Assembly (NCBI RefSeq): GCF_009914755.1
Contig: NC_060926.1
Length of the DNA stretch: 64,000 nucleotides
Strand: one strand, 5' to 3'
Source of the DNA: the human T2T-CHM13v2.0 reference genome, Homo sapiens
Below the pieces are notes generated by a model that was not told where the DNA came from, made no database searches, and was given only the letters and a program-made list of their open reading frames with translations. Made by a program: the position numbers and the translations under genes. Of the stretch, positions 1,807 to 47,647 are shown piece after piece (within the stretch, counting starts at the first letter, position 1; each line of letters starts with the position of its first letter).

Positions 1807-2589
1807 GGTCATCCCCCGCAGGGCCTCAAAGCTTAGGTAAAGTCTGAAATACACACAGCCCTGTGGAGGCAATATTTTGAGAGCGAGAAAGAATTAGAGC
1901 AGTAACCAGCACCAAGTGATAAGATTTATAATAGGATTATATACTGTTTGGTATATACTTAATTTGGTAATATGAATCATAAACTGAAATAATTAAACAA
2001 AGAGAGAAAAGCCAGAACAAAAAATCACTGGGAAAATATATGCCCCTTCCCCAGGAATTCCCAGAGATGTGAAGCGGGACACTAGGTGTCCCACTACTTG
2101 TAGTCTGGGGATTACAGACAAATGTAACAGGTTGAGCCTGGTCACCTGGAGAATCTCAGCAATTGGGCCACAGTTCCATCTGTGGCTTCGTTACACCTAT
2201 GATGTCGTTGTTTGCTCACAAATGAATACCTCTTTTCTATTTAGCAAGTTTCCTAGATGCCTTATTACATGTATGGAGCAGTAAAGTTGTTTTTGTCTCT
2301 CAGTCTACAGCATCTATCCACTTGCAAGGAGGGGTGGTTTGGGAAGAATTCTAATAATGGGGAAAGGACCTCTGCAGGGGGCTTGTCCTTCTCCAGCACC
2401 TTACTGTCCCTACTCACCTATGACCAGAGGCAGTATGGGAAGCCTGAAGGACATGCTGCACCCAGATCACACATTCTAACTCATCTGTCAAGATGCCAAG
2501 GCCCCAGGACTTGGAAGAGTAACCATTTTAGCATTTGGACAAAAAGCCTTGTGGTCCAATAGAAAGAGGTCTGGGCTGAGAGCTTTGTC

Positions 2590-2780
2590 ATGACTTACTC
2601 ATGCCCCGGCCACACAGGAGCAGTTATTAGAATCAGGTCATTCCAGCTCTGCTACTAACCAACTTCACAACTTTAGGCAAGTCACTCAGCCACTCCTGCA
2701 CGCAGTTTCCTCGTCTATCAGAGAACCTCTGCCTCAAAAGATTGCAGTAAGGAAAGAAAGCAGATTTTTGTAAATGTGAA
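2590..2780 (+). mobile_element. MIR relic
   Basis: ttccagctctgctact..ggcaagtcactc..cagtttcctcgtctat. Confidence 0.55.
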
Positions 2781-2929
2781 AAAATGTGGAAAAAAAAACC
2801 TTTAAAAAGTAAAACAATCTGTGATAATGATCAGGGATTATTTCCATTGCCTTATGATGTTTATGGTTGCAGTTTTTAACAATAACAGTAAATGTTATGA
2901 CTGAGGCAATGAGACATGATTAGGTAATC

Positions 2930-3380
2930 TGCATAGCAAGCACTGCTGGTTGGCCAACCAAACGTCCATTGCCAGACTCTTTCTTCTTCCTTGTCTGGCT
3001 TCATTACAGAGAATGGAAAAGCTACAGTCTCACTTTCTTAAACACACAGACAGCTAGGGGTAACCACATGACATAGTTCTGACCAATAAGTAAGAAAGAG
3101 TCTTCTGCAGCATTTCTGATCAGGTTTATTCTTTGCTAATGAAAAAGAAATCAATGTAAATGGCATCCTCTCTTTTTCCTGCACCGAAGGACATGATGCT
3201 TAGAGCATGGAAGTCATCTAATAACTTGAAAGGCCAAGAAAGTTAGTTCTCATTGAACTGCTGAATCAACATCTTCAGTTCCCTATCTATCTCCAGACTG
3301 GTTCTCATATAAGAAAACAAACCCCTATGTTCAACTTTTGTTAGTTACCTGCAGCTAAAAGCATTCCTGACTGATATAAC
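2930..3380 (+). mobile_element. ERVL LTR (LTR33-like) with 20-bp tandem duplication at its 3' end
   Basis: cacatgacatagttctgaccaataag and gttacctgcagctaaaagcattcctgactgatata motifs; tgactgatataacaa occurs twice at 3368-3407. Confidence 0.5.
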
Positions 3381-3819
3381 AACATCTTGACTGATATAAC
3401 AATATCCTATCTATTTTGTCTTATAGAAATTTCTCTCCTAGTGATCTTTATGAAGAGTTTAACTCAAAGAGAAAGGAGGAAATTTTTTCCTCCAAAGGCC
3501 CAAAGCAATAAAGAAATGATCAAGAAAAATGGGTGAATTTCCTCTGCAAAGTAAGTTCGAATATCACTATGATATCAGGCCACTGGATCTCCCCATGTTC
3601 ATACATTTGTCTTGCCAAGAGACCTAGCCTATAACGAAGCCTTCGCTACCTACCCTACAGGGTTCTAAGGATCAAAAGACATAATGGTTGTTAAAGCTCT
3701 GTATAGACTATAAAATGCCTCGTAAAGGCTGAGTTCCTGAGGAGCCTATGCTTGGTGCTGTTTTTGGTGCTGTTCAAGATCTGTTTCTATTTATACCTCT
3801 GTGCTGCTGAATCTCATTG

Positions 3820-4060
3820 CTGTTTTCATCCCCTGTGTCTCCAAAGAGCTCTTGGTCTTTATTTCTAGCTACTTCCTAAACATCTTCACCTGGATCTTTA
3901 ACAGCACTTAAAACTCAGCATGTCCAAAACTGAATTAATTTCTGTTCTCCACAAAGTCATTCCTCTGCCTGTGTTCCTGGTTCCCAGTAATAGACGTCAC
4001 CATACACCTACTTTCCACAGGTAGAAAACTGAGTCATCTTCAACTCCTTTTTTTCCCTTC
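3820..4060 (+). mobile_element. L2 relic
   Basis: cacttaaaactcagcatgtccaaaactgaatt L2 motif. Confidence 0.6.
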
Positions 4061-4127: not shown

Positions 4128-4437
<310 letters not shown>

Positions 4438-5211: not shown

Positions 5212-8200
5212 GGCAAACAGCATTTATCTTGATTAAAAAAAACTTTAAAAAGCGAAAAAAAAGATTCTTCCTACAGAGGTCTCTATTAGCAACGAATACA
5301 GTTCCCGCTTCTCATCCCAGCTTTCATGACCCTCATAATCATGCTGCTTCTTCATATTTGAGCTTCATCTTTCAGTGACTTCCATGGGCACCCTTCATTC
5401 CTAACAACCAAGTACGCTGCACTCCGTGAACACCACTAGGCCTTTCCATTCCATGTCTTTCTCTATTCCCCACACTTAGAACGCTGCCTCGCCCTATCTG
5501 CCCAGACTATGGTCTTCACTTTCCTGCCACCTGTATCCACAGGCAGCTTTCCACTGGGCCTCAAGCCAGAAATGAGCCCTTTCTTGTTCCTGTAAAGTCT
5601 CATAGCTCTTAATTTACCTTGTACTTTCGGGATTTATCATCACTTGCCTTACCCTGTGGTCATCTAGATTCAAAAGTCATGTTTTCTTACATGTTTATCT
5701 TTGCATGTAACACAGTGCCTCCGGTATTATGGATGTAAAATTCTTAGATAAATTGTTAGAGAAATACTTGCTGGGTGAAATACACTTATATACTTATACT
5801 TTGAATATAATATATTTAAAATATACTTATATTTTGAGATCACTTTCACATCTATTACCACAGCACAACAATTACCGGAAGGAGGCAGAACAGATATTAT
5901 TGTCTCTGTAAAACTGGGGCCAGAAAGGTCAAGGAACTTTCCTTACATCACCCTGGAAGCTCAGGCAGATGAACAAACTCACTTCCTGCTTCTGGTGCTT
6001 CACTGGGGCTTTTTCTGCTCAACTCAACTCTCATGGGTCTGAGTCTATCCTGGGCCTTTTCTGGTCCCAAAGCAACTTGCATCACCCTCATTTTCCACTT
6101 CGCCTTGCAGCCCCCACTCCTGTTGGTTTGAAAACACAGCTTCCTGCCGATCTCTCCCCACCCTCTGTGAAATCTGTCTCAGGCACACAGGGAGAAGCAA
6201 GGAGCTAATGTTCAGGCAATGTGCTGCCCTCCTGTGATGAAAGGTGCAATCTCCATCACTCCCTGAGACACAGCATCCCTGCGTCTGTTTTGAAGCAGAC
6301 CTGTGCCTTTGCAGCTGCTTCCCGTGAACAGCAAAGCCATTATCCCGGCCCACTGTTCTCTTCGTCTGACACTCTCTTAAATATGTCATTTTTCTCATTT
6401 TCATTAATAATGCTTTTTTAACACCTGATCAGCCTCACTGTCTGCTCTAGGTTAAGGCCTATTATTCCATTAGAGTTTGACATTTGAAATGCAATGAGGC
6501 ATTCATGCACAGGTAGAGCTAATGGGGAAAATGGCTTGAGTCAGGGCTTTATGTACCAGGCAGTTTGGAAAATGAGAGTGGTCAACAAGAAACAGAAGCC
6601 TGCTTTTGTGCCAGCCACAGAGTTCTGGGTCCAAGACACACTGGGTCCCCTGTGATAGGTTCAGGACACAGATGTGACCTTTTCTGCCACTGGAGGATAT
6701 CAGGCAGGCACGTCTCCCAGATTGTGCATCTAGAAGAACCTGGAGCAGGTGAAAGAAAATTAGGCAATAGACCTAATGACAAGTCGGTGGGCGTAGAGAA
6801 AATTAATTGAACTTTTCTGCCTTTCTCGACTCCTATTCTCCGATGTTCAGGGCAGCCAGTTATTACGGGGACCTCAGAAGATATTTACCGGCCTCTGGTG
6901 CTGCCACGTGCTTGCCTTTGTCAAATGAGTGAGTTGAATGTAACACTCAAGATTAGAGGGGCCAAAGAAGTTGAGAAATTCAGCCAGTGTGTGTCCCAGT
7001 TTCCCTTCCTAAACCTATCAAGTGAAAATAACCGCTTACATTTTGCTTACTTATTTATTCATCATTTACTCAACAAACACTTATTGAAGGCTTTCCGTGT
7101 AGACGCCGGGTATATCCCTGCCCTCACAGAATTTACAACACTTTTACTATTTCCCCACTTTTACTTTCATTCTGACTATAACTCTTCCATGTAAGAAGGG
7201 GAAATGCCATCTTCAGTTTTGAGACGCAGAGTGAATGAAATCTCAGTGGGCATGAAAACGTATGCTTGCAAGAAATACACCTTTCTCTAACTTGTTGTAG
7301 TAAACTTAACTCCAACTCCAAATCTCCATCTCACCAGGCCGGAGGGAATTTCAGTCAGACATCCTGGCAATGGGTCTCCTCCTAAAGATGCGCCAGAATT
7401 GAGAAGCCTTATGTGGTACCAGGAATGGCAGCAGGGACTATTAGTCCATTGTGACTACTGACGCTATCCTCATCTATCAAGCCCATTGTGATCCCTTGAG
7501 ATATGGTGGCCTTCTGTGTCCATGCCACACATGGGGCCCAAGAATCTTTGCTTAGGGTGGGACCCCCGGCGCCTAGATTCTCACCTTCACAGGCTGACTA
7601 CATGGCCATCCCCTCTGAGCTACTGCAGCCCTCTAGGGTGCTGCTCTGAAGCCAGGTGTGGATTCATGATTAAAGTGAGGCACCATAATTGCTGGAAGCC
7701 TCCCTCTCCCCTCTCCCTCCCTTTTCAAGAAAAAAAAAAAAAAAGCAAGTATAATCTTGTTTTTCAGTTTAGTTGTTCCAAACGAAGAAGGAGAAATTGG
7801 CTCCCAGAAGCTTCTATTTTTCACATACTTAAAAACCTCGGAATCTCTGATTCCAAGGCGTGCTAAGGCCCTAGCAACCTGCTTTCAAGGGAGAAGAAAA
7901 AATAGAGAACAAACATTAATTGGCAGTCAAATTAATTATCCTGCCACAGTGATGAAAAATCCAAAATGCCGGAAGAGGTAACATTCATCACCCTGAGCTT
8001 CTCCTCCAATCCTGGCCCCGGCACACACCCCAAATCCAATGGCAAGTGGGGGCTGCCTGCTGCTTGTGGCTGCCTCCCATCCGTCAGTAGATCCAGAGTC
8101 ATGCAATAACATGGAACTGTGGGAAAGCTTCTGTAACTTACATAGATTAGCCACATGAGGAGAGAAGCACATCATCTAGCCATTGTCCCCCAACACCACC

Positions 8201-40500: not shown

Positions 40501-42657
40501 TCTTGGGTCACAGTCTTAGTATAAATTCCATTCTATCAGTGGCTAGCCAATAAGCTATGTATGCAGACACACATGATGCCTAGGAAGCCATGCTTAAAAA
40601 TAAAAATGAGAACTTAAAAAAAAATGAGCAAAAACATCAGTGGCTACACACAGTGGGGGAGACAAGTTTTTCAAATCCCAGGCAATTGTTAAACCAACAG
40701 CAACACAACTTTAGGGGACATGAGAGAGCAGGAAATCAGAATTTATAATTGTTACCACATATTACCTAAAATGTCCAGTTTTCAACAAAAAATTATGAGA
40801 CATACAATGATACGGCCAAGTGCAACCTATACTCAGGGAAAAAAGTAATCAGTAGAAACTGTCTCTGAATATCTCCAGATGTTGGATTTAGTGGACAAAG
40901 ACAGCAAAGCAGCTATTACAAATATGTTAAATGAACAAACGGAAGCATATTTAAGGAATTAAAGTTTTTTTGTGTTCACACACACTAAGGTCTGTATATA
41001 TATAAGAATTCTACAGCTCTTCTGACTTTCCATGCAGTTGGCAGTACCTGACTGAGAGAGGTAAGTTTCCTGGGTATGCTATAATTTACCCAGGACAATT
41101 GCAGTAGACCAGAGATTGGTTCCTTTGCTTCTGTTTTGTTTTGTTTTGCTTTGCTTTTCCTTTTGCAGTGAGACCAGAAATTGGCTTCTTTGCTCGTTTT
41201 ATATATCTCATTGCATCTTATATCAGTACAGTATCAGTAAACACTAGTATAAATAGCAAACTTTCTATGTAGCACACCTGTTAGGTTTCAGTGTGACTTG
41301 CCTTCCTTTCCAGCAGCAGCCTTGCAAATGGTTTTGGTAAAGACATTCTGTGGGCAAATTACCAGTTTTTTCCATTTATTTGCTGTGTGACTTTGAGCAA
41401 GTTTCCTAACCTCTCTGAATTTTCTCATGTATAACACAGGGTTTTTAAAAAACTCTACCTTGTGAAGTTCTCATGTGTTCATTTAATAACTATCTTATGG
41501 AGCACCTACTATGGTCCAGGCATTACATAGGTGCTAGGGAAAGAGGGATGTACAGGACAAATAAGATACCTAGCTTTCATTCTATTGAAGTGGGGGTGGG
41601 GTGGGGGGGTGCAGACAGTAGAGAAGGAAAAAGATAACTAATTCAGTAAGATATTTTAATTGAGTGATGACTGTTATAAAGAAATTAAACTTCCTATTGT
41701 TTAACAATAAAGCAATAAGTAGAAAATCTCAATAAAGAGACAGTTTTTTAAGAACTAAATGAAAATTTAGGAGCTGAAAAGTATAACAATTGAAATAAAA
41801 AACTGACTAGAATAGCTCAGTGGTAGGTTAGTGACTGAAAATAAATCAATAGAAATTATCTAATCTGAAGATCAGAAAAAAAAGATTAAAGAAAAATGAA
41901 CAGAGCTTTCAACACCTGTAGGACAACATCAAGTATATCAGCATACATTTAATGGGAATCTCAGGAAGAAAGGAGAGAAAGAGAAAGGGGCAGAAAAACA
42001 TTTTTAAAAATTTTGTGGGAAATTTTTTTTTAAGAAATGTATCTACACATCTAAGGATCTAAACCAATCTCAAGTAGGATAAATTTAGATGCTTACACCT
42101 ATCTCATCATACTCAAATCATTGAGAGCCAAAAAGAGAGAGAAATAATTCATTTAAATAGAAAGACAAAAATAATTCATCGTGTACAAGGGACCATTAAT
42201 GTGAACTGACTTCTCATCTGAAACAATGAGAGCCAAAAACAGGGGAATAGTCCATATGCTGAAGAAAAGAAAAAAATGTCAGCTGAGGATTCTATACTCA
42301 GCAAAACTATCTCAAAAATGGAGGCAAGATAAAGACATTCCCAAGAAACAAACACAGAAAAGTTAGTGCTAGAAACCTGCCTTACCAGACATTCTAAAGT
42401 TCTTCATCCTGATAGAAAATGACACCAAACAATAACTTAAATCCATAAGAAGAAATGAAGTGCATTGAATATGGTAAATATATGAGTTAACATGAAAGAT
42501 TATTAATATATTTTCCTCATTTCTTTGTTTAAATTCCTTGACAAAATATGTGATTTTTATTCTAAAAAGAATTATAACATTGTATGGAGAGATGTAATAT
42601 ATGTAACAATAACAGTATGAAGTAATGGGGAAAAAATGGAGCTATATTGAAGCAAGG

Positions 42658-42969
42658 TTTTGTTTTGTTTTTCTTTTTTTTTTTTTTTTTTTGAGACAGG
42701 ATCTCATTCTGTCATTCAGGCTGGGGTGCAGTGACACAAAGATGGCTCATTGCAGACTCGGCCTCCTGGGTTCAAGTGATCCTCCTGACTCAGCCTCCTG
42801 TGTAGCTGGGACCACAGGTGTGCACCACCACACCCAGCTAATTTTTAAATTTTTTGTAGTGATGGGATATCACTTTGTTGCCCAGGTTGGTCTCAAATTG
42901 TGGGCTCAAGCAATCGTCCTGCCTCAGCCTTGTGAAGTGCCAAGATTAAAGACATGAGCCACCATACCG
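42658..42969 (-). mobile_element. AluJ abutting the NORAD retrocopy
   Basis: Diverged reverse Alu flanked by aaggtttt. Confidence 0.95.
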
Positions 42970-42984
42970 AAGGTTTTTATTGTA

Positions 42985-45900
42985 TTTTTTTTTTTACAAA
43001 ATATGCTAATTTTACTAAGTACTCTGTCATACACTGGCAACCTCTTTAACATCTAGAGACTAAATGTCACAAAATTAGGACTCATTTGTCCATTATATAC
43101 ACTATATACAGAGCAAAACAAAATGCATGAAACATACAGAAAAATGGTGTCTGAAAATGTCCAATTATGAACACACTAGCATATTACTTTTGGCAATTTC
43201 TTCCCTCCCACCTCCTCTGAACCATTGAACAAGTATAGACAGTACTATACTGCTCACAAAGGTGGCTTCACAATTAAATTTCCAAAAGACAACATTTCCC
43301 ATGAATTTTAGCAAAAAGATATTTACAAAGTGGTATTTTACTACCTCTACATTTAACATACATTGGGCACCTCTAAACATCTAGGTAGACTAGATGTTTC
43401 AAGTAAGGAGTGAATTCATCCACTCCACACAGCAGTCTTGAATAAACTGCAAACATGTAACAACAGTTATAATTTGAAAGAGTCTTCCAAATATGAACAT
43501 TCTGGCCTAGAACCTTTCCTATCTTCATCAACCCAGTGGGCAAGAATGCTCACATTTTCAGAAGACAATCTTTCCTATGACTTTTAAAACAAAATGTACA
43601 AAATATATTAGTTTACTAACTATTTTGGACATACACTGGCAACCTCTTTAACATCTACAAGAACTGGATTTGTAAATTAGGTTTCATTTGTCCTATATGT
43701 ACACTATAGACACAGGTAAGTAAAGCAAGTCAGGGACACCCACCCCGCTGATGATGCTGGGTTCCTGCGCCTTGGGAGGAGGCTCTGCATGAGGCAGTGT
43801 CCCCAGAGTCTGCCCCACATCAGGGTGACTGCTGAGCCTGATGCTTCCAGTGGTCAAGCCTAGGGTCCCCAATCCACTCCCAGAGGCACCACATGGAGTA
43901 GGGCTATGAGCCAAGTGAGGAGGAGCCCAGGACCACCACTGAGCACCAGGGCCATCAAAAGAACTTGTGGCGATGTCACCCCTGCCCTGGATGCCAGCCC
44001 ACGGCCAGAAAGGACCTGGAGCCCCTGCCCCAGGCTGCAAGGAGGCATGGCCAGGGCTGCACACTCCACGAAGCCTACAGGAGCCAGGGACAAGCAGAAG
44101 CCCTGGCCCTTCAGAGTTGGCAGGGCAGGAGCTCCCTAGGTGCAGCTGCAGCCAACCTGACATGGCTGTGGACCCAGGCATCTCTGCACTCTCAGGGCCC
44201 AGCAAGCACCCCCTTCCCCCTGCAGGCTCAAGTGTGCCTGCTCCTGCTGCCTGGCTTCTCCTCATTGTTGGCACCCACTCCAATCTTGGAGCAAGGGCAG
44301 GGCCAAGCCCAGGCACTGTCACAGCCTGGCTGGGGGTGCACACACTCAGGGCAGTACTGACATACAAGCCTGCTGCCACCTCAGCCCCCTCCAGACTTTG
44401 GTGCCCACAAGCATGGGAGGGAGGCCAAGGGGACACTGAGGACAGCCCAGCACTGGCCTGCAGGTGCCCCTTGGCATGAACAGCCTGGGCACCATGAACA
44501 GCAGCAGGAGGCAGACAGGCTCCTGGGCAGAAGGGGGAGGGTCCCCAGTGAAGCCCAGCTTTCAAGCCGGAGAGGGCCTGAAGCCTGGGGGCTGGGCCAC
44601 TGGTCCCACAGCCCAGAGGGGGAACTTGTGGTGCTTTTTTCTGGGCCCATCCATGGTCACCCATAAGCCAATCAGCACACACTTCCTCTCCTCTGTGGCC
44701 CATAAAAACCCCAGACTCAGCCAGACTCAAACAGAGGACAGAGAGACGATGGGGAGGTGATGGGATGACCAGCTGCAAAGAGGAACCACCCTTTCTGCTG
44801 AGAGCTGGACATTCATCAGGACAACCTGCCTAGCAGAGAGGAACTACCCTCTCTGCTGACAGCTGAAGAGATGATGGGATGACCAGCTGCAGAAAGGAGC
44901 TGCCCCTTCTGCTGAGAGCTGAACACTCTTTAGGACACCCTGGCTATGGAGAGGAGCTGCCTACTGCAGGTTTCCTCTGAGCTGTTCTATTGCTCAATAA
45001 AGCTCCTCTTCATCTTGCTCACCCTCCTCTTATCTGCACACCTCATTCTTTCTGGTCGCAGGACAAGAACTTGGGACCTCCTGAATGGTAAGGCTAAAAG
45101 AGCTATAACAAAAACAGAGCTGAAATATGCCCCTTGCTCACCACATTGTGGGTAAAGAGAAGGAGAGAAGAGCTGTGGCCCTTCAGGGAGCCCAGACCTG
45201 GGAGTTCCCCAAGCCAGGGCTGTGACTCCCTCTTTGGGACCTGTGGTTCCTGGCATCTCCAATCTTCTGGGCACTACCACATTCCCCAGTGCCAGCCAGG
45301 GAAGCAGCTTGTAGTGCACCTGGTCCAGCCACAGCCTCTCAGAGAACCAGCACCCAGGCCAGCATCTGGAGCCGCCCACCCTGTGGCAGCAGTGGGTGTG
45401 TCTGTGTGACCCCACACTCACTCACACACCCCTCACCACTCAATGACTGACCTGCAGTCTCCCTTGGAGGCATGAGATGCAGGCTGATAGCATGCAGCCT
45501 GCTAGTCCAAGTGGGCGGAACAAGCCCAGTGGGCCCAAGCAAAACTCAGGCAAAGGCACAACTAGCCACAGAGTTTCCCAGCCAGAAAAGCGACACCCCA
45601 AAGATCTCATAACAACAGATCTCATCCATTGAAACACAGCAGTCACCTGGGACCCAGATCTGCACAGCTCCATGGCCTAAAGAGGTGACCAAACCTGCCT
45701 GTGTCCACAGACCTCCTTCCCAGGCCCTCCACACCCTAATGGCATTTGCCGCATTTGGGTGGTCACCATGCTTCCCAGCCTGCCATTCCCACTGACTTCA
45801 AAAAATGCTGCATCCTGGCAGCTCAATGGGGGTTTCATGTAGGCCAAGCAGGGTTGAGCTGGGATACCCAGCAGTGGCCAGTGGGGTCCAGGCTTGGAGA

Positions 45901-46121
45901 GGCCACCACCATTAGTCACCAAGGTGAGGTAGGGAAGAGAGGTTCACCACTGCTTCAAGGCCTGGGCCTGGCCAATGGGTAGCCACAGCAAAGGCCCCGG
46001 GTGTCTGCAGGGCAGAGGGTGCAGCTTGTCCTGGGCCCCCTCAGCTCACCTGCTACCCAGAGGGCCCTGGAGGAGCACGCTGTGCTCTGCATCTCACCAT
46101 GCTCTCTGCTAGACTGGAGCT
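42985..46121 (-). pseudogene. Processed copy of lncRNA NORAD (LINC00657) 5' ~1.5 kb, interrupted by a MER52 LTR
   Basis: Minus strand starts agctccagtctagcagagagc..gctcctccagggccctc and contains gaacctctcttccctacctcaccttggtgactaatgg, matching the recalled NORAD 5' end with CpG decay; 3' part has ~300-nt repeat units with TGTANATA elements; T11 tail at 42985; TSD aaggtttttatt at 42970 and 46123. Confidence 0.85.
43966..45614 (+). mobile_element. MER52-family ERV1 solo LTR
   Basis: TG..CA ends; ccagccagaaaagcgacaccccaaagatctcataaca 3' end; CCAAT 44668, cataaaa 44701, AATAAA 44996; ~58-bp internal repeats 44760-44960; TSD not resolved. Confidence 0.85.
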
Positions 46122-46486
46122 CAAGGTTTTTATTTTTTACCAAAATTAAGTCAGTATTATTCTAAAGTCGATAGTGAAGAATTAGAAAGTATATTGTAAT
46201 TCCTAGAGCAACTACTAAGAAAATATATATATATGTATATGACTACATATATGCATCCATGTTAAATAAATCTACCGTGAATCTAATTGGCACACTAAAT
46301 TACTGAACATAAAAGACAGCTGTAAACAGGAACAGAAAAACAAAAAATACATTAGACACAGAAAACAAAGAAAAATGTCAAATGTAAATCTGATCATATT
46401 AATAATTACACTAAAAAAGAATGTACTAAGTTATTTAATTAAAAGGCAAAAATTGCCTGACTGATTAAAAAAGCAAGAAGCAACTA

Positions 46487-46718
46487 TAAGTTGAGCATGC
46501 CCTATCTGAAATGCTGGGGCCAGAAGTGTTTCGGATTTCTGATTTTTTCCGATTTGGGGATATTTGCACTATTTACCAGTTGAGCGTCCCAAATGAAAAA
46601 TTAGAAATAAAAAATACTCCAATGAGCATTTCCTTTAAGCATCATGTTTGCACTCAAATAGTTTCAGATTTTAGAGCATTATGGATTTCAGATTTTCACA
46701 TTTGGGATGCTCAACCTG
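46487..46718. mobile_element. Tigger4/MER46 MITE
   Basis: TIRs gttgagcat..atgctcaacctg followed by TA. Confidence 0.75.
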
Positions 46719-47647
46719 TATTTACTATCTATAAGACAGATACCACACATTCAAAGACATACATAGGTTGATAACAAAAGGATAAGAAAAGATGAACCAC
46801 TATTACAAACAGTATATATAAGACAGCTGAGTGGCTATATTATTATCAGACAAAATAAATTTTTAAGAAATATTATGGATAAAATGGTGAAAGCATACAA
46901 TTTATAATAAATGTTTACACACCTAACAACAGAATCTCAATATATATGAAGCAAAATCTGAAAAACCAAAAGAAAAATGACAACAATAATAGTTAGAAAT
47001 TGTCATATCCCATTCTCCATAGTTCATAGAACAAATGGAAATTCATTAAGTCTATAGGAGACTTAGACAATACTATTTACACACTTAGCCTAAGCGATAT
47101 GTAGAATGTTCTACCCAATGACTGCATAATATACATTCTTTTCAAGCATGTATGAGACATTCTTCAGGGTCTACCATATGCTAGATTATAAAATAAGTTT
47201 TAATAAATTTAACATGAATAAAATCATAAAATATTTTCTGAGTACAATAGAATTAAATATGAAATTCCCAAATATTTGGAAATTAACATACTCCTAAATA
47301 ATCTATGGGTCAAAAAATAAATTACAAAAAGAATTAGAGAAGAATTTGAAGCAAGTGAAACTGCAGAAATTTATGGGCTGCAGTACTAAAACAATGCTTA
47401 GAGAGACCTTTATAGATTTAAAAGCCTTTATCAGAAAAGAAAAAAAGGCCTTAAATCTGTAAACTTAGCTTTTCTCTTAAGACACTAAAATAAAAATAAC
47501 AAACCCAAAGCAAGCAAAAGAAAGTAAATATAAAGACTACAGCAGATATCAACAAAATAGAAAACAAATTATATAGGGAAAAAAACTATGAAACAAATAG
47601 TTCTTTGAATAAAACAACAAAATTGACAAATCTTTAGATAGAATGAC

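What the first reader, a model, noticed from the sequence alone, without database searches (positions are those of the whole stretch)
42985..46121. NORAD lncRNA retrocopy hidden inside an old L1
Seen: an insert bounded by a 12-bp TSD (aaggtttttatt at 42970 and 46123) with a T11 tail, a GC-rich CpG-decayed 5' part and an AT-rich repetitive 3' part; the host L1M reads through once the insert and adjacent Alu are removed. Recalled knowledge: the minus-strand start matches the NORAD 5' end from about nucleotide 1, and NORAD is known to have many retrocopies, some transcribed. Inference: a 5'-complete processed copy of a non-coding RNA, invisible to ORF-based annotation.
Basis: partly seen in the sequence, partly recalled or inferred. 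Interest (0 to 1): 0.8.

Follow-up and report, generated by a model that had tools for sequence, protein, structure and literature searches.

The report
Broken NORAD pseudogene in old repeat

Summary
An exact 12-bp target-site duplication (42970-42981, 46123-46134) brackets a minus-strand insert with an 11-nt A tail (T-run at 42985-42995). I confirmed the chr20 parent as NORAD: published NORAD primers match it exactly, and it has a 5,339-nt unit and 15 Pumilio motifs.

The copy starts at the same nucleotide as four other independent NORAD retrocopies.
- Window 46121-45618 is NORAD nt 1-534. Its CpGs have decayed: 1 of 58 is kept.
- Window 43728-42996 is NORAD nt 1426-2150, with 91.8% substitution identity.
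- NORAD nt 535-1425 are missing.
- In their place sits a 1.9-kb LTR-like dispersed repeat (43737-45617). One of its ends is intact, the other is truncated, and it has no duplication of its own.

The A tail joins at NORAD nt 2150, 22 nt after an AGTAAA hexamer. Two other independent retrocopies (chr7, chr9) end within 3 nt of this point, so the template was probably an internally polyadenylated short NORAD RNA.

The host repeat reads through once the insert and the adjacent Alu are removed. That the host is an L1 is only weakly supported.

NORAD pseudogenes are already in print as a class. Nothing suggests this copy functions. Interest is low.

The parts
42654..42661 (+). Left copy of the Alu's own short direct repeat (AAGGTTTT). 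It is the same target sequence as the first 8 nt of the NORAD TSD.
   Evidence: Read; positions confirmed.
42662..42969 (-). Alu element. Its A-rich tail reads as a T-rich run at 42662-42692 on the + strand. It abuts the left NORAD TSD.
   Evidence: Metazoa_SRP match at 42691-42838 (minus), 65.4 bits against a gathering score of 70; sequence.
42970..42981 (.). Left copy of the 12-bp target-site duplication AAGGTTTTTATT.
   Evidence: 2 matches in the window; 0 of 100 shuffles reach 2.
42985..42995 (-). Poly(A) tail of the retrocopy (A11; T11 on the + strand). Positions 42982-42984 are 3 odd bases between the tail and the TSD.
42996..43728 (-). NORAD nt 1426-2150, about 2.4 NORAD repeat units. 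It holds 4 UGUANAUA motifs (at 43703, 43327, 43110, 43101).
   Evidence: blastn 89.2% over 740 columns. Base-level alignment. Substitution identity 91.8%, K2P 0.088. Motifs.
43729..43736 (.). 8 nt at the junction that match neither NORAD nor the nested repeat.
   Evidence: NORAD homology ends at 43728. Repeat homology starts at 43736-43739.
43737..45617 (+). Nested LTR-like dispersed repeat, family not named. It has a 114-bp tandem duplication (44754-44946), an ATAAAA motif near 44703 and AATAAA at 44997 on the + strand. The end at 45617 is intact. The end at 43737 is truncated. It has no flanking duplication.
   Evidence: 2215 first-look candidates, 40 scored; right ends pile up at query 1877-1889. 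Terminus compared with L016-L018. The family continues at least 480 nt further in L020, L023 and L024. Repeat D1. None of 4 ORFs has a Pfam match.
45618..46121 (-). NORAD nt 1-534, the 5' CpG-island part, heavily CpG-decayed.
46122..46122 (-). One extra G (on the minus strand) between the TSD and NORAD nt 1. It is not templated by the parent, which has C there.
46123..46134 (.). Right copy of the 12-bp target-site duplication.
41868..42363 (+). Host repeat upstream of the insertion, with weak colinear traces of L1 ORF1p domains.
   Evidence: Tnp_22_trimer E=0.008, 16.9 bits against a cut-off of 22.2. Tnp_22_dsRBD E=0.077, 13.5 bits against 22.2. Both are below threshold.

Best explanation
This is a dead processed pseudogene of the lncRNA NORAD. 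The steps below are marked as shown or inferred.

1. Shown: the copy derives from a NORAD transcript that began at the normal start site.
2. Inferred: that transcript was cleaved and polyadenylated inside the RNA, at about nt 2150 of 5,339. The site lies 22 nt after an AGUAAA hexamer and just before a GU-rich stretch.
3. Shown by its hallmarks (12-bp target-site duplication, A11 tail, start at the transcription start site, no promoter sequence): the LINE-1 machinery reverse-transcribed the RNA into a T-rich site of an old dispersed repeat.
4. Inferred: an LTR-type retroelement later integrated at NORAD nt 534/535. One subsequent deletion then removed the far part of that element together with NORAD nt 535-1425.
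5. Shown: an Alu used the same target sequence. The order of the Alu and NORAD insertions is undetermined.
6. Shown: CpG decay erased the former CpG island.

The copy retains about 2.4 of the 12 NORAD repeat units and 4 Pumilio motifs. RefSeq annotates no gene here, and the copy most likely has no function.
For: TSD and tail.

Parent identity: both NORAD primers are exact in L011 (chr20) and both HCG11 primers are exact in L012 (chr6). AATAAA lies at nt 5314. There are 15 UGUANAUA motifs (primers, length and motif number from passages of PMC7976429).

Colinear blocks: insert nt 1-488 matches parent nt 1-517 at 69%, and insert nt 2394-3127 matches parent nt 1426-2149 at 89%.

CpG decay explains the low 5' identity: 40 of 58 parental CpGs are now TG or CA, and non-CpG identity is 84.2%.

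Same start: HCG11 and the chr5, chr12 and chrX copies start at the same nucleotide, each with unrelated upstream DNA.

Internal poly(A) site: the parent has no A-run at nt 2150. AGTAAA lies at nt 2128 and TTTGTGTTG follows the site. The chr7:23.34 Mb copy has its own TSD and an A9 tail at the same base. The chr9:105.9 Mb copy ends 3 nt later with an A-run.

Nested repeat: it has many genomic copies. The 45617 end coincides with the family terminus in 3 of 3 loci compared. The 43737 end is internal to the family in 3 loci.

Missing segment: nt 401-1425 give no alignment to window 43729-44100.

Uniqueness: only the window itself matches at 100%. The chr7 copy carries the intervening about 870 nt without the repeat.
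Against: - No transcription data could be consulted, so 'dead' rests on truncation, decay and the absence of a RefSeq gene.
- 'Insertion, then one deletion' is the simplest history but is not proven. Eight bases at the 43729-43736 junction are unexplained.
- The L1 endonuclease site is T-rich but not the textbook TTTT/AA as I read it.
- AGUAAA is a weak variant signal. That it counts as a signal at all is recalled knowledge and was not tested here.
- Non-CpG identity of the 5' part (84.2%) is lower than that of the 3' part (91.8%). I attribute this to composition but did not test it.
Confidence: 0.9

Rival explanations
1. The copy was not made from NORAD itself. Its template was an RNA from another expressed NORAD retrocopy, such as HCG11 or the chr7:23.34 Mb copy, which ends at the same base.
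For: In the raw search the window's 3' block matches the chr7 copy (91%) and the chr9:116.17 Mb copy (90%) slightly better than NORAD (89%). FastTree places the window next to the chr7 copy. HCG11 is expressed (PMC4947167 passage).
Against: Counting substitutions only, identity to NORAD (91.8%) is no lower than to chr7 (91.3%), chr9:116.17 Mb (91.0%) or HCG11 (91.9%). The window and the chr7 copy share 1 exclusive change in 733 nt. Unrelated pairs share 0-4. The tree is a comb along one master lineage, and the window branches off before HCG11. The copy starts exactly at the NORAD start site, which a promoter-less daughter locus would be unlikely to reproduce.
Confidence: 0.05
2. The NORAD / LTR-like / NORAD arrangement arose in a single event. 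Either the L1 reverse transcriptase switched templates during retrotransposition, or the source RNA was already chimeric. No later insertion and deletion occurred.
For: The nested repeat has no target-site duplication of its own. Both NORAD blocks keep the same orientation and order within a single TSD pair.
Against: One junction falls exactly at the natural terminus of the repeat family (TG..., with unrelated flanks in 3 of 3 other loci). Integration predicts this; random template switching does not. No other genomic locus carries these junctions. A double switch back to the same RNA in register is less parsimonious than an insertion followed by a deletion.
Confidence: 0.08
3. The locus is a transcribed, working NORAD-like decoy for Pumilio proteins, in the manner of HCG11, perhaps driven by the nested LTR.
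For: Four UGUANAUA motifs survive. The nested element carries TATA-like and AATAAA motifs. HCG11 shows that a NORAD retrocopy can be expressed (PMC4947167).
Against: Only about 2.4 of 12 repeat units are present, and the NORAD 5' CpG island is erased. RefSeq lists no gene in 42985-46121 (hub table). PMC4947167 states that the close NORAD pseudogenes other than HCG11 do not appear to be expressed. The LTR motifs face the + strand, opposite to the NORAD sense strand.
Confidence: 0.03
4. The 3' end at nt 2150 does not reflect a real poly(A) site. It reflects priming by the L1 reverse transcriptase on an internal A-rich stretch, or random breakage of the RNA.
For: 3'-truncated retrocopies can arise from degraded or internally primed templates (general knowledge).
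Against: The parent has no A-run at nt 2150. Three independent copies end within 3 nt of each other. Of the other internal ends, three lie about 18-26 nt after a hexamer: ATTAAA at 2701 for the end at 2719, ATTAAA at 4217 for 4243, and AGTAAA at 2738 for the end near 2758. The end at nt 2593 (chr5 copy) has no recognised hexamer before it.
Confidence: 0.12

Closest known systems
NORAD processed pseudogenes, including HCG11 on chr6p22.2
   Same: All derive from the chr20 NORAD RNA and start at the same nucleotide. They carry a TSD and an A tail and contain NORAD repeat units with Pumilio motifs. [quoted passage not shown]
   Different: The four pseudogenes singled out in PMC4947167 share >90% homology over >4 kb. 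This copy holds only 1.26 kb of NORAD in two blocks, ends at nt 2150, lacks nt 535-1425 and is interrupted by another repeat. RefSeq does not annotate it (hub table).
chr7:23.34 Mb NORAD retrocopy (G000:C7:23342460-23344580)
   Same: It covers NORAD nt 3-2149. Its A tail joins at the same base. It is of similar age, with K2P to NORAD of 0.067 against 0.088 for the window.
   Different: It has its own TSD (ATTTGTGACTC). It keeps nt 535-1425 and carries no nested repeat.
Generic L1-mediated processed pseudogene
   Same: TSD of 12 bp, poly(A) tail, no promoter sequence, T-rich target, and one untemplated G at the 5' end.
   Different: The parent is a single-exon lncRNA, so intron loss cannot be used as a criterion. 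The template was a short, internally polyadenylated form.

Membership tests
L1-mediated processed pseudogene (retrocopy) | Flanking target-site duplication of about 7-20 bp | tested here: met
   An exact 12-bp repeat occurs only at the two ends of the insert; 0 of 100 shuffles reach 2 matches.
L1-mediated processed pseudogene (retrocopy) | Poly(A) tail at the 3' end that is not encoded by the parent locus | tested here: met
   The A11 tail follows ...TTTTGTA. The parent continues CACTTTG.
L1-mediated processed pseudogene (retrocopy) | Homology starts at the transcription start site and promoter DNA is absent | tested here: met
   The copy starts at the same A as 4 other independent copies, and its upstream DNA is unrelated to the chr20 promoter.
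L1-mediated processed pseudogene (retrocopy) | Introns of the parent are absent | not testable with these tools
   NORAD has one exon (PMC7976429 passage), so this criterion carries no information.
L1-mediated processed pseudogene (retrocopy) | Insertion at an L1 endonuclease consensus site (TTTT/AA) | tested here: inconclusive
   The target is T-rich (…GGTTTTTATT/TTTTACC on the + strand), but by my reading it is not the textbook site.
NORAD-derived sequence | Colinear alignment to the NORAD transcript | tested here: met
   Two colinear blocks, nt 1-534 and nt 1426-2150, with an 891-nt gap. The parent was verified by primers, length and motif count.
NORAD-derived sequence | NORAD repeat units of about 300 nt with UGUANAUA motifs | tested here: met
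   Direct repeats spaced 602 nt apart and 4 motifs. The 12 units of about 300 nt are from PMC4947167.
Functional NORAD-like lncRNA gene (HCG11 type) | Near full-length array of repeat units | tested here: not met
   Only nt 1426-2150 of the roughly 3.5-kb array is present.
Functional NORAD-like lncRNA gene (HCG11 type) | Evidence of transcription | not testable with these tools
   No expression data are available here. The RefSeq table from the hub lists no gene in 42985-46121.
Solo LTR / ERV insertion (nested element) | Many dispersed copies sharing a defined TG...CA terminus | tested here: met
   2215 first-look candidates. The end at 45617 starts TGTT... on the minus strand, and 3 of 3 other loci show unrelated flanks there. 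Only this one terminus is present.
Solo LTR / ERV insertion (nested element) | 4-6 bp target duplication on both sides | tested here: not met
   The flanks (...gcaag / gatctc...) do not match. This is explained by the deletion on the 43737 side.
Solo LTR / ERV insertion (nested element) | Retroviral protein domains or a named family | tested here: inconclusive
   None of 4 ORFs has a Pfam match.
LINE-1 (host repeat) | ORF1p/ORF2p domain matches | tested here: inconclusive
   Two colinear but sub-threshold ORF1p matches (E=0.008 and 0.077). None was found in 1.9 kb downstream.

The most novel reading that the evidence does not exclude
NORAD repeat units contain a cryptic cleavage/polyadenylation module: AGUAAA, then 11-12 nt, then UUUUGUACA, then a GU-rich stretch. 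It occurs at nt 1540, 2128 and 2738. The module was used repeatedly in the primate germ line. NORAD's only two internal ATTAAA hexamers (nt 2701 and 4217) were used as well. Short NORAD isoforms carrying only a few Pumilio-binding units therefore existed, and may still exist. The retrocopies are a fossil record of them. Of 19 NORAD-derived loci examined, 7 end with an A-run at an internal position. Three of these ends lie at nt 2150-2153 and one near nt 2758.
Probability: 0.5. Interest if true: 0.35.

Novelty: new member of a known kind. Interest (0 to 1): 0.15.

Why it matters
For annotation, this is one more unlabelled NORAD-derived stretch. It can attract multi-mapping RNA-seq or CLIP reads; PMC6407921 describes mapping NORAD reads specially because of the many pseudogenes.

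Biologically the copy itself is ordinary. The small point of wider interest is that several independent NORAD retrocopies record the same internal 3' ends. That makes the existence of short, internally polyadenylated NORAD isoforms directly testable with 3'-end sequencing.

Tried and rejected
- Rfam: no lncRNA family matched the insert. Only Alu/SRP and sub-threshold miRNA-like matches in the flanks appeared, so Rfam could not name the insert.
- Missing NORAD segment: a local alignment of window 43700-44100 (minus) to parent nt 401-1600 found only the start of the nt 1426 block. The idea that 43729-43965 is decayed NORAD was dropped. This stretch is part of the nested repeat.
- Splicing as the cause of the gap: the parent reads GAGACC|TACC at nt 534/535, with no GT donor, and the repeat sits exactly in the gap. 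Rejected.
- Recombination between two LTRs as the cause of the gap: rejected, because the 43737 end is internal to the family.
ORF pieces and X-read-through frames gave only two sub-threshold L1 ORF1p matches and nothing for the nested element.
- The genome-wide pattern search for the tail junction is noisy at 3 mismatches: 58 hits against 25 for the reversed control. Only 4 hits lie in NORAD-derived loci.
- One paper (PMC7694907) was read for primers and gave none in its main text.
- Two literature searches for an internal NORAD poly(A) site or short isoform showed nothing relevant among the listed papers. PMC10854850, from the first search, held no relevant passage. This does not show that no such report exists.
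I used the hit table only.
Full report
**1. What is in the sequence**

The 12-mer AAGGTTTTTATT occurs exactly twice in the window, at 42970-42981 and 46123-46134. None of 100 dinucleotide-preserving shuffles gave two matches.

Directly inside the left copy lie 3 bases and then a run of 11 T (42985-42995). On the minus strand this is an A11 tail at the 3' end of the insert.

G+C content changes along the insert:
- 42996 to about 43700: 31-37% G+C.
- About 43700 to 46100: 50-66% G+C.

The AT-rich part contains direct repeats spaced 602 nt apart (families D2, D3 and D5).

An Alu lies immediately left of the insert. It matches Metazoa_SRP at 65.4 bits, just under the gathering score of 70. It sits between two copies of AAGGTTTT at 42654 and 42970. 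The Alu and the insert therefore used the same target sequence. Either order of insertion gives the present arrangement.

**2. The parent is NORAD**

The window's own genome, the human T2T assembly, could be searched. The first 507 nt of the insert (minus strand) gave 20 matches: the window itself plus 19 others. One of these is on chr20 at 37.77 Mb, with 69% identity over query 1-488.

I fetched 8.5 kb around that place (L011). Four tests identify it as NORAD:
- Both NORAD qPCR primers printed in PMC7976429 (passage read) match L011 exactly, in the expected orientation.
- Both HCG11-specific primers from the same paper match the chr6 locus (L012) exactly. Only the HCG11 forward primer also matches L011.
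- Counting from the base aligned to the insert's first base, AATAAA lies at nt 5314. Full-length retrocopies end at nt 5336-5339. This fits the 5,339 nt given in that paper.
- There are 15 UGUANAUA motifs; the paper says "at least 15".

Rfam holds no family that matches the insert.

**3. Which parts of NORAD are present**

There are two colinear blocks.
- Insert nt 1-488 aligns to parent nt 1-517 at 69%.
- Insert nt 2394-3127 aligns to parent nt 1426-2149 at 89%.
- At base level, the 5' block runs from window 46121 to 45618 and equals parent nt 1-534.
- The 3' block runs from window 43728 to 42996 and equals parent nt 1426-2150.

CpG decay explains the low identity of the 5' block:
- Of 58 parental CpGs, 1 is kept, 40 are now TG or CA, 11 changed otherwise and 6 are gapped.
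- CpG observed/expected is 0.069 in the copy and 0.834 in the parent.
- Identity outside CpG sites is 84.2%.

Parent nt 535-1425 are absent. A local alignment of window 43700-44100 (minus) against parent nt 401-1600 found only the first 29 nt of the nt 1426 block.

**4. 5' completeness**

HCG11 and the copies at chr5:25.29, chr12:29.26 and chrX:79.43 Mb all begin at the same A of AGTTCCGG. Each has unrelated DNA upstream, and the window's copy begins at that same A.

One G (window 46122, minus strand) lies between the TSD and nt 1. The parent has C at that position, so the G is untemplated. An extra 5' G on full-length retrocopies is commonly ascribed to the cap. That ascription is recalled knowledge, not tested here.

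**5. The 3' end is an internal site**

In the copy, the A tail follows ...TTAGCATATTTTGTA. The parent continues CACTTTGTGTTG, with no A-run. AGTAAA lies 22 nt upstream, at parent nt 2128.

Two other copies end at the same place.
- chr7:23.34 Mb covers parent nt 3-2149. It has an A9 tail at the same base and its own TSD, ATTTGTGACTC.
- chr9:105.9 Mb ends 3 nt later, at ...TTTTGTGCA plus an A-run.

The window and the chr7 copy share only 1 exclusive substitution in 733 nt. Unrelated pairs share 0-4. They are therefore independent events and not parent and daughter. I conclude that the template was a short NORAD RNA polyadenylated at about nt 2150. That AGUAAA is a recognised weak variant of the poly(A) signal is recalled knowledge.

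**6. The nested element**

Window 43737-45617 is one unit of a dispersed repeat.
- The whole unit gave 2215 first-look candidates, of which 40 were scored. Nearly all alignments that reach the right side end at query 1877-1889 (window 45605-45617).
- The part 44650-45110 alone gave 1784 candidates.
- The part 43725-44010 gave only 50.

At 45617 the element starts (on the minus strand) TGTTGTTATGAGATC. Three of three other copies (L016-L018) start there with the same words and unrelated flanks, so this is a true family terminus.

At the other side, repeat homology starts at 43736-43739. In L020, L023 and L024, however, the family continues at least 480 nt further. The window's copy is therefore truncated on that side.

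Other features:
- There is no flanking duplication.
- On the + strand there is an ATAAAA motif near 44703, a 114-bp tandem duplication (D1) and AATAAA at 44997. These are LTR-like.
- Its long open frames, including one of 378 aa on the minus strand, have no Pfam match (0 of 4).
- Without a repeat library I cannot name the family.

The simplest history is integration at NORAD nt 534/535, followed by one deletion from inside the element to NORAD nt 1425. Eight bases (43729-43736) at that junction match neither partner.

Splicing is excluded: there is no GT at nt 535. Recombination between two LTRs is not supported, because one end is truncated. No other locus in the genome has these junctions, and the chr7 copy keeps the intervening segment.

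**7. The host**

The flanks are an old dispersed repeat: 222 first-look candidates, with the best matches at 67-73% identity. Of 11 related loci:
- 7 hold both flanks in order and orientation. In L050, window 42659 and 46131 lie 4 nt apart, which is the spacing expected once the Alu and the insert are removed.
- 1 holds both flanks out of order.
- 3 hold the left flank only.

Two sub-threshold, colinear matches to L1 ORF1p domains lie upstream on the + strand: Tnp_22_trimer with E=0.008 and Tnp_22_dsRBD with E=0.077. There is no match in the 1.9 kb downstream. 'Old L1' is plausible but not established.

**8. Family context and age**

The 3' block finds NORAD-like sequence at 36 separate places, counting the window and NORAD itself. 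This is my count by eye from the table and is a lower bound, since 40 of 54 candidates were scored.

A tree of this block from 15 sequences is a comb along one master lineage. The chr5 copy is youngest (K2P to NORAD 0.014), followed by chr12:29.26 (0.024), chrX:79.43 (0.039) and HCG11 (0.051). The window (0.088), chr7:23.34 and chr9:116.17 branch earlier, and six copies are older still.

The window is 0.0585 (K2P) from the majority consensus and has 23 strictly private changes in 733 nt. At commonly quoted primate neutral rates (recalled) this means a few tens of millions of years. I could not test primate orthologues.

**9. What is known**

- PMC4947167 (passages read) states that NORAD has a "large number of closely related" pseudogenes in mammalian genomes. 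Four human ones share >90% homology over >4 kb. They do not appear to be expressed, except HCG11. NORAD has 12 repeat units of about 300 nt.
- The hub's RefSeq table lists no gene in 42985-46121.

This is therefore a new, unlabelled member of a known class.

**10. Side result**

I examined 19 NORAD-derived loci: the window plus the 18. Seven have an A-run directly after an internal NORAD position:

| Copy | End (NORAD nt) | Hexamer before it |
|---|---|---|
| window | 2150 | AGTAAA at 2128 |
| chr7:23.34 Mb | 2150 | AGTAAA at 2128 |
| chr9:105.9 Mb | 2153 | AGTAAA at 2128 |
| chr5:25.29 Mb | 2593 | none recognised |
| chr2:108.87 Mb | 2719 | ATTAAA at 2701 |
| chr7:25.27 Mb | about 2758 | AGTAAA at 2738 |
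| chrX:79.43 Mb | 4243 | ATTAAA at 4217 |

Five copies end at the canonical site. Three of these were read directly and two are inferred from coordinates only. The remaining 7 are undetermined.

The only two internal ATTAAA hexamers of NORAD, and two of the three AGTAAA...TTTTGTACA modules, thus each sit about 18-26 nt before a recorded retrocopy end. Two literature searches showed nothing on internal NORAD poly(A) sites among the listed papers, and PMC10854850 from the first search held no relevant passage. This does not show that the point is unpublished.

**11. Verdict**

The thing itself is an ordinary dead pseudogene, so interest is low.

Noticed in passing
NORAD-derived loci L013, L025, L027, L029, L036, L038 and window 42985-42996: Seven of 19 NORAD-derived loci examined end with an A-run at an internal NORAD position (nt 2150 twice, then 2153, 2593, 2719, about 2758 and 4243). 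Six of the seven lie about 18-26 nt after an AGTAAA or ATTAAA hexamer; the end at nt 2593 has no recognised hexamer. This suggests recurrent internal polyadenylation of NORAD in the germ line.
   Followed up: partly
window 42654-42981: The Alu and the NORAD copy used the same target sequence. AAGGTTTT flanks the Alu, and the right-hand copy is the start of the 12-bp NORAD TSD. The order of the two insertions cannot be told from this window.
   Followed up: partly
window 43693-44829 (minus strand): A stop-free frame of 378 codons lies inside the GC-rich nested repeat. It has no Pfam match and is most likely a chance product of composition.
   Followed up: partly
window 46480-46721: A stretch in the right flank gives sub-threshold matches to mir-1290 (40.7 bits against 82) and MIR8643. 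It looks like the end of a DNA-transposon-type repeat inserted in the host repeat. It was not examined further.
   Followed up: no
L011 (chr20 NORAD) nt 3662-3950, and many other loci: NORAD nt 3662-3950 matches many of the fetched loci at unrelated positions and in either orientation. This segment behaves as a common interspersed repeat embedded in NORAD.
   Followed up: no
L030 (G000:C6:29033000-29042500): Two NORAD 5' matches lie in opposite orientation about 6 kb apart on chr6 at 29.03-29.04 Mb. This suggests a local inverted duplication of a NORAD pseudogene.
   Followed up: no
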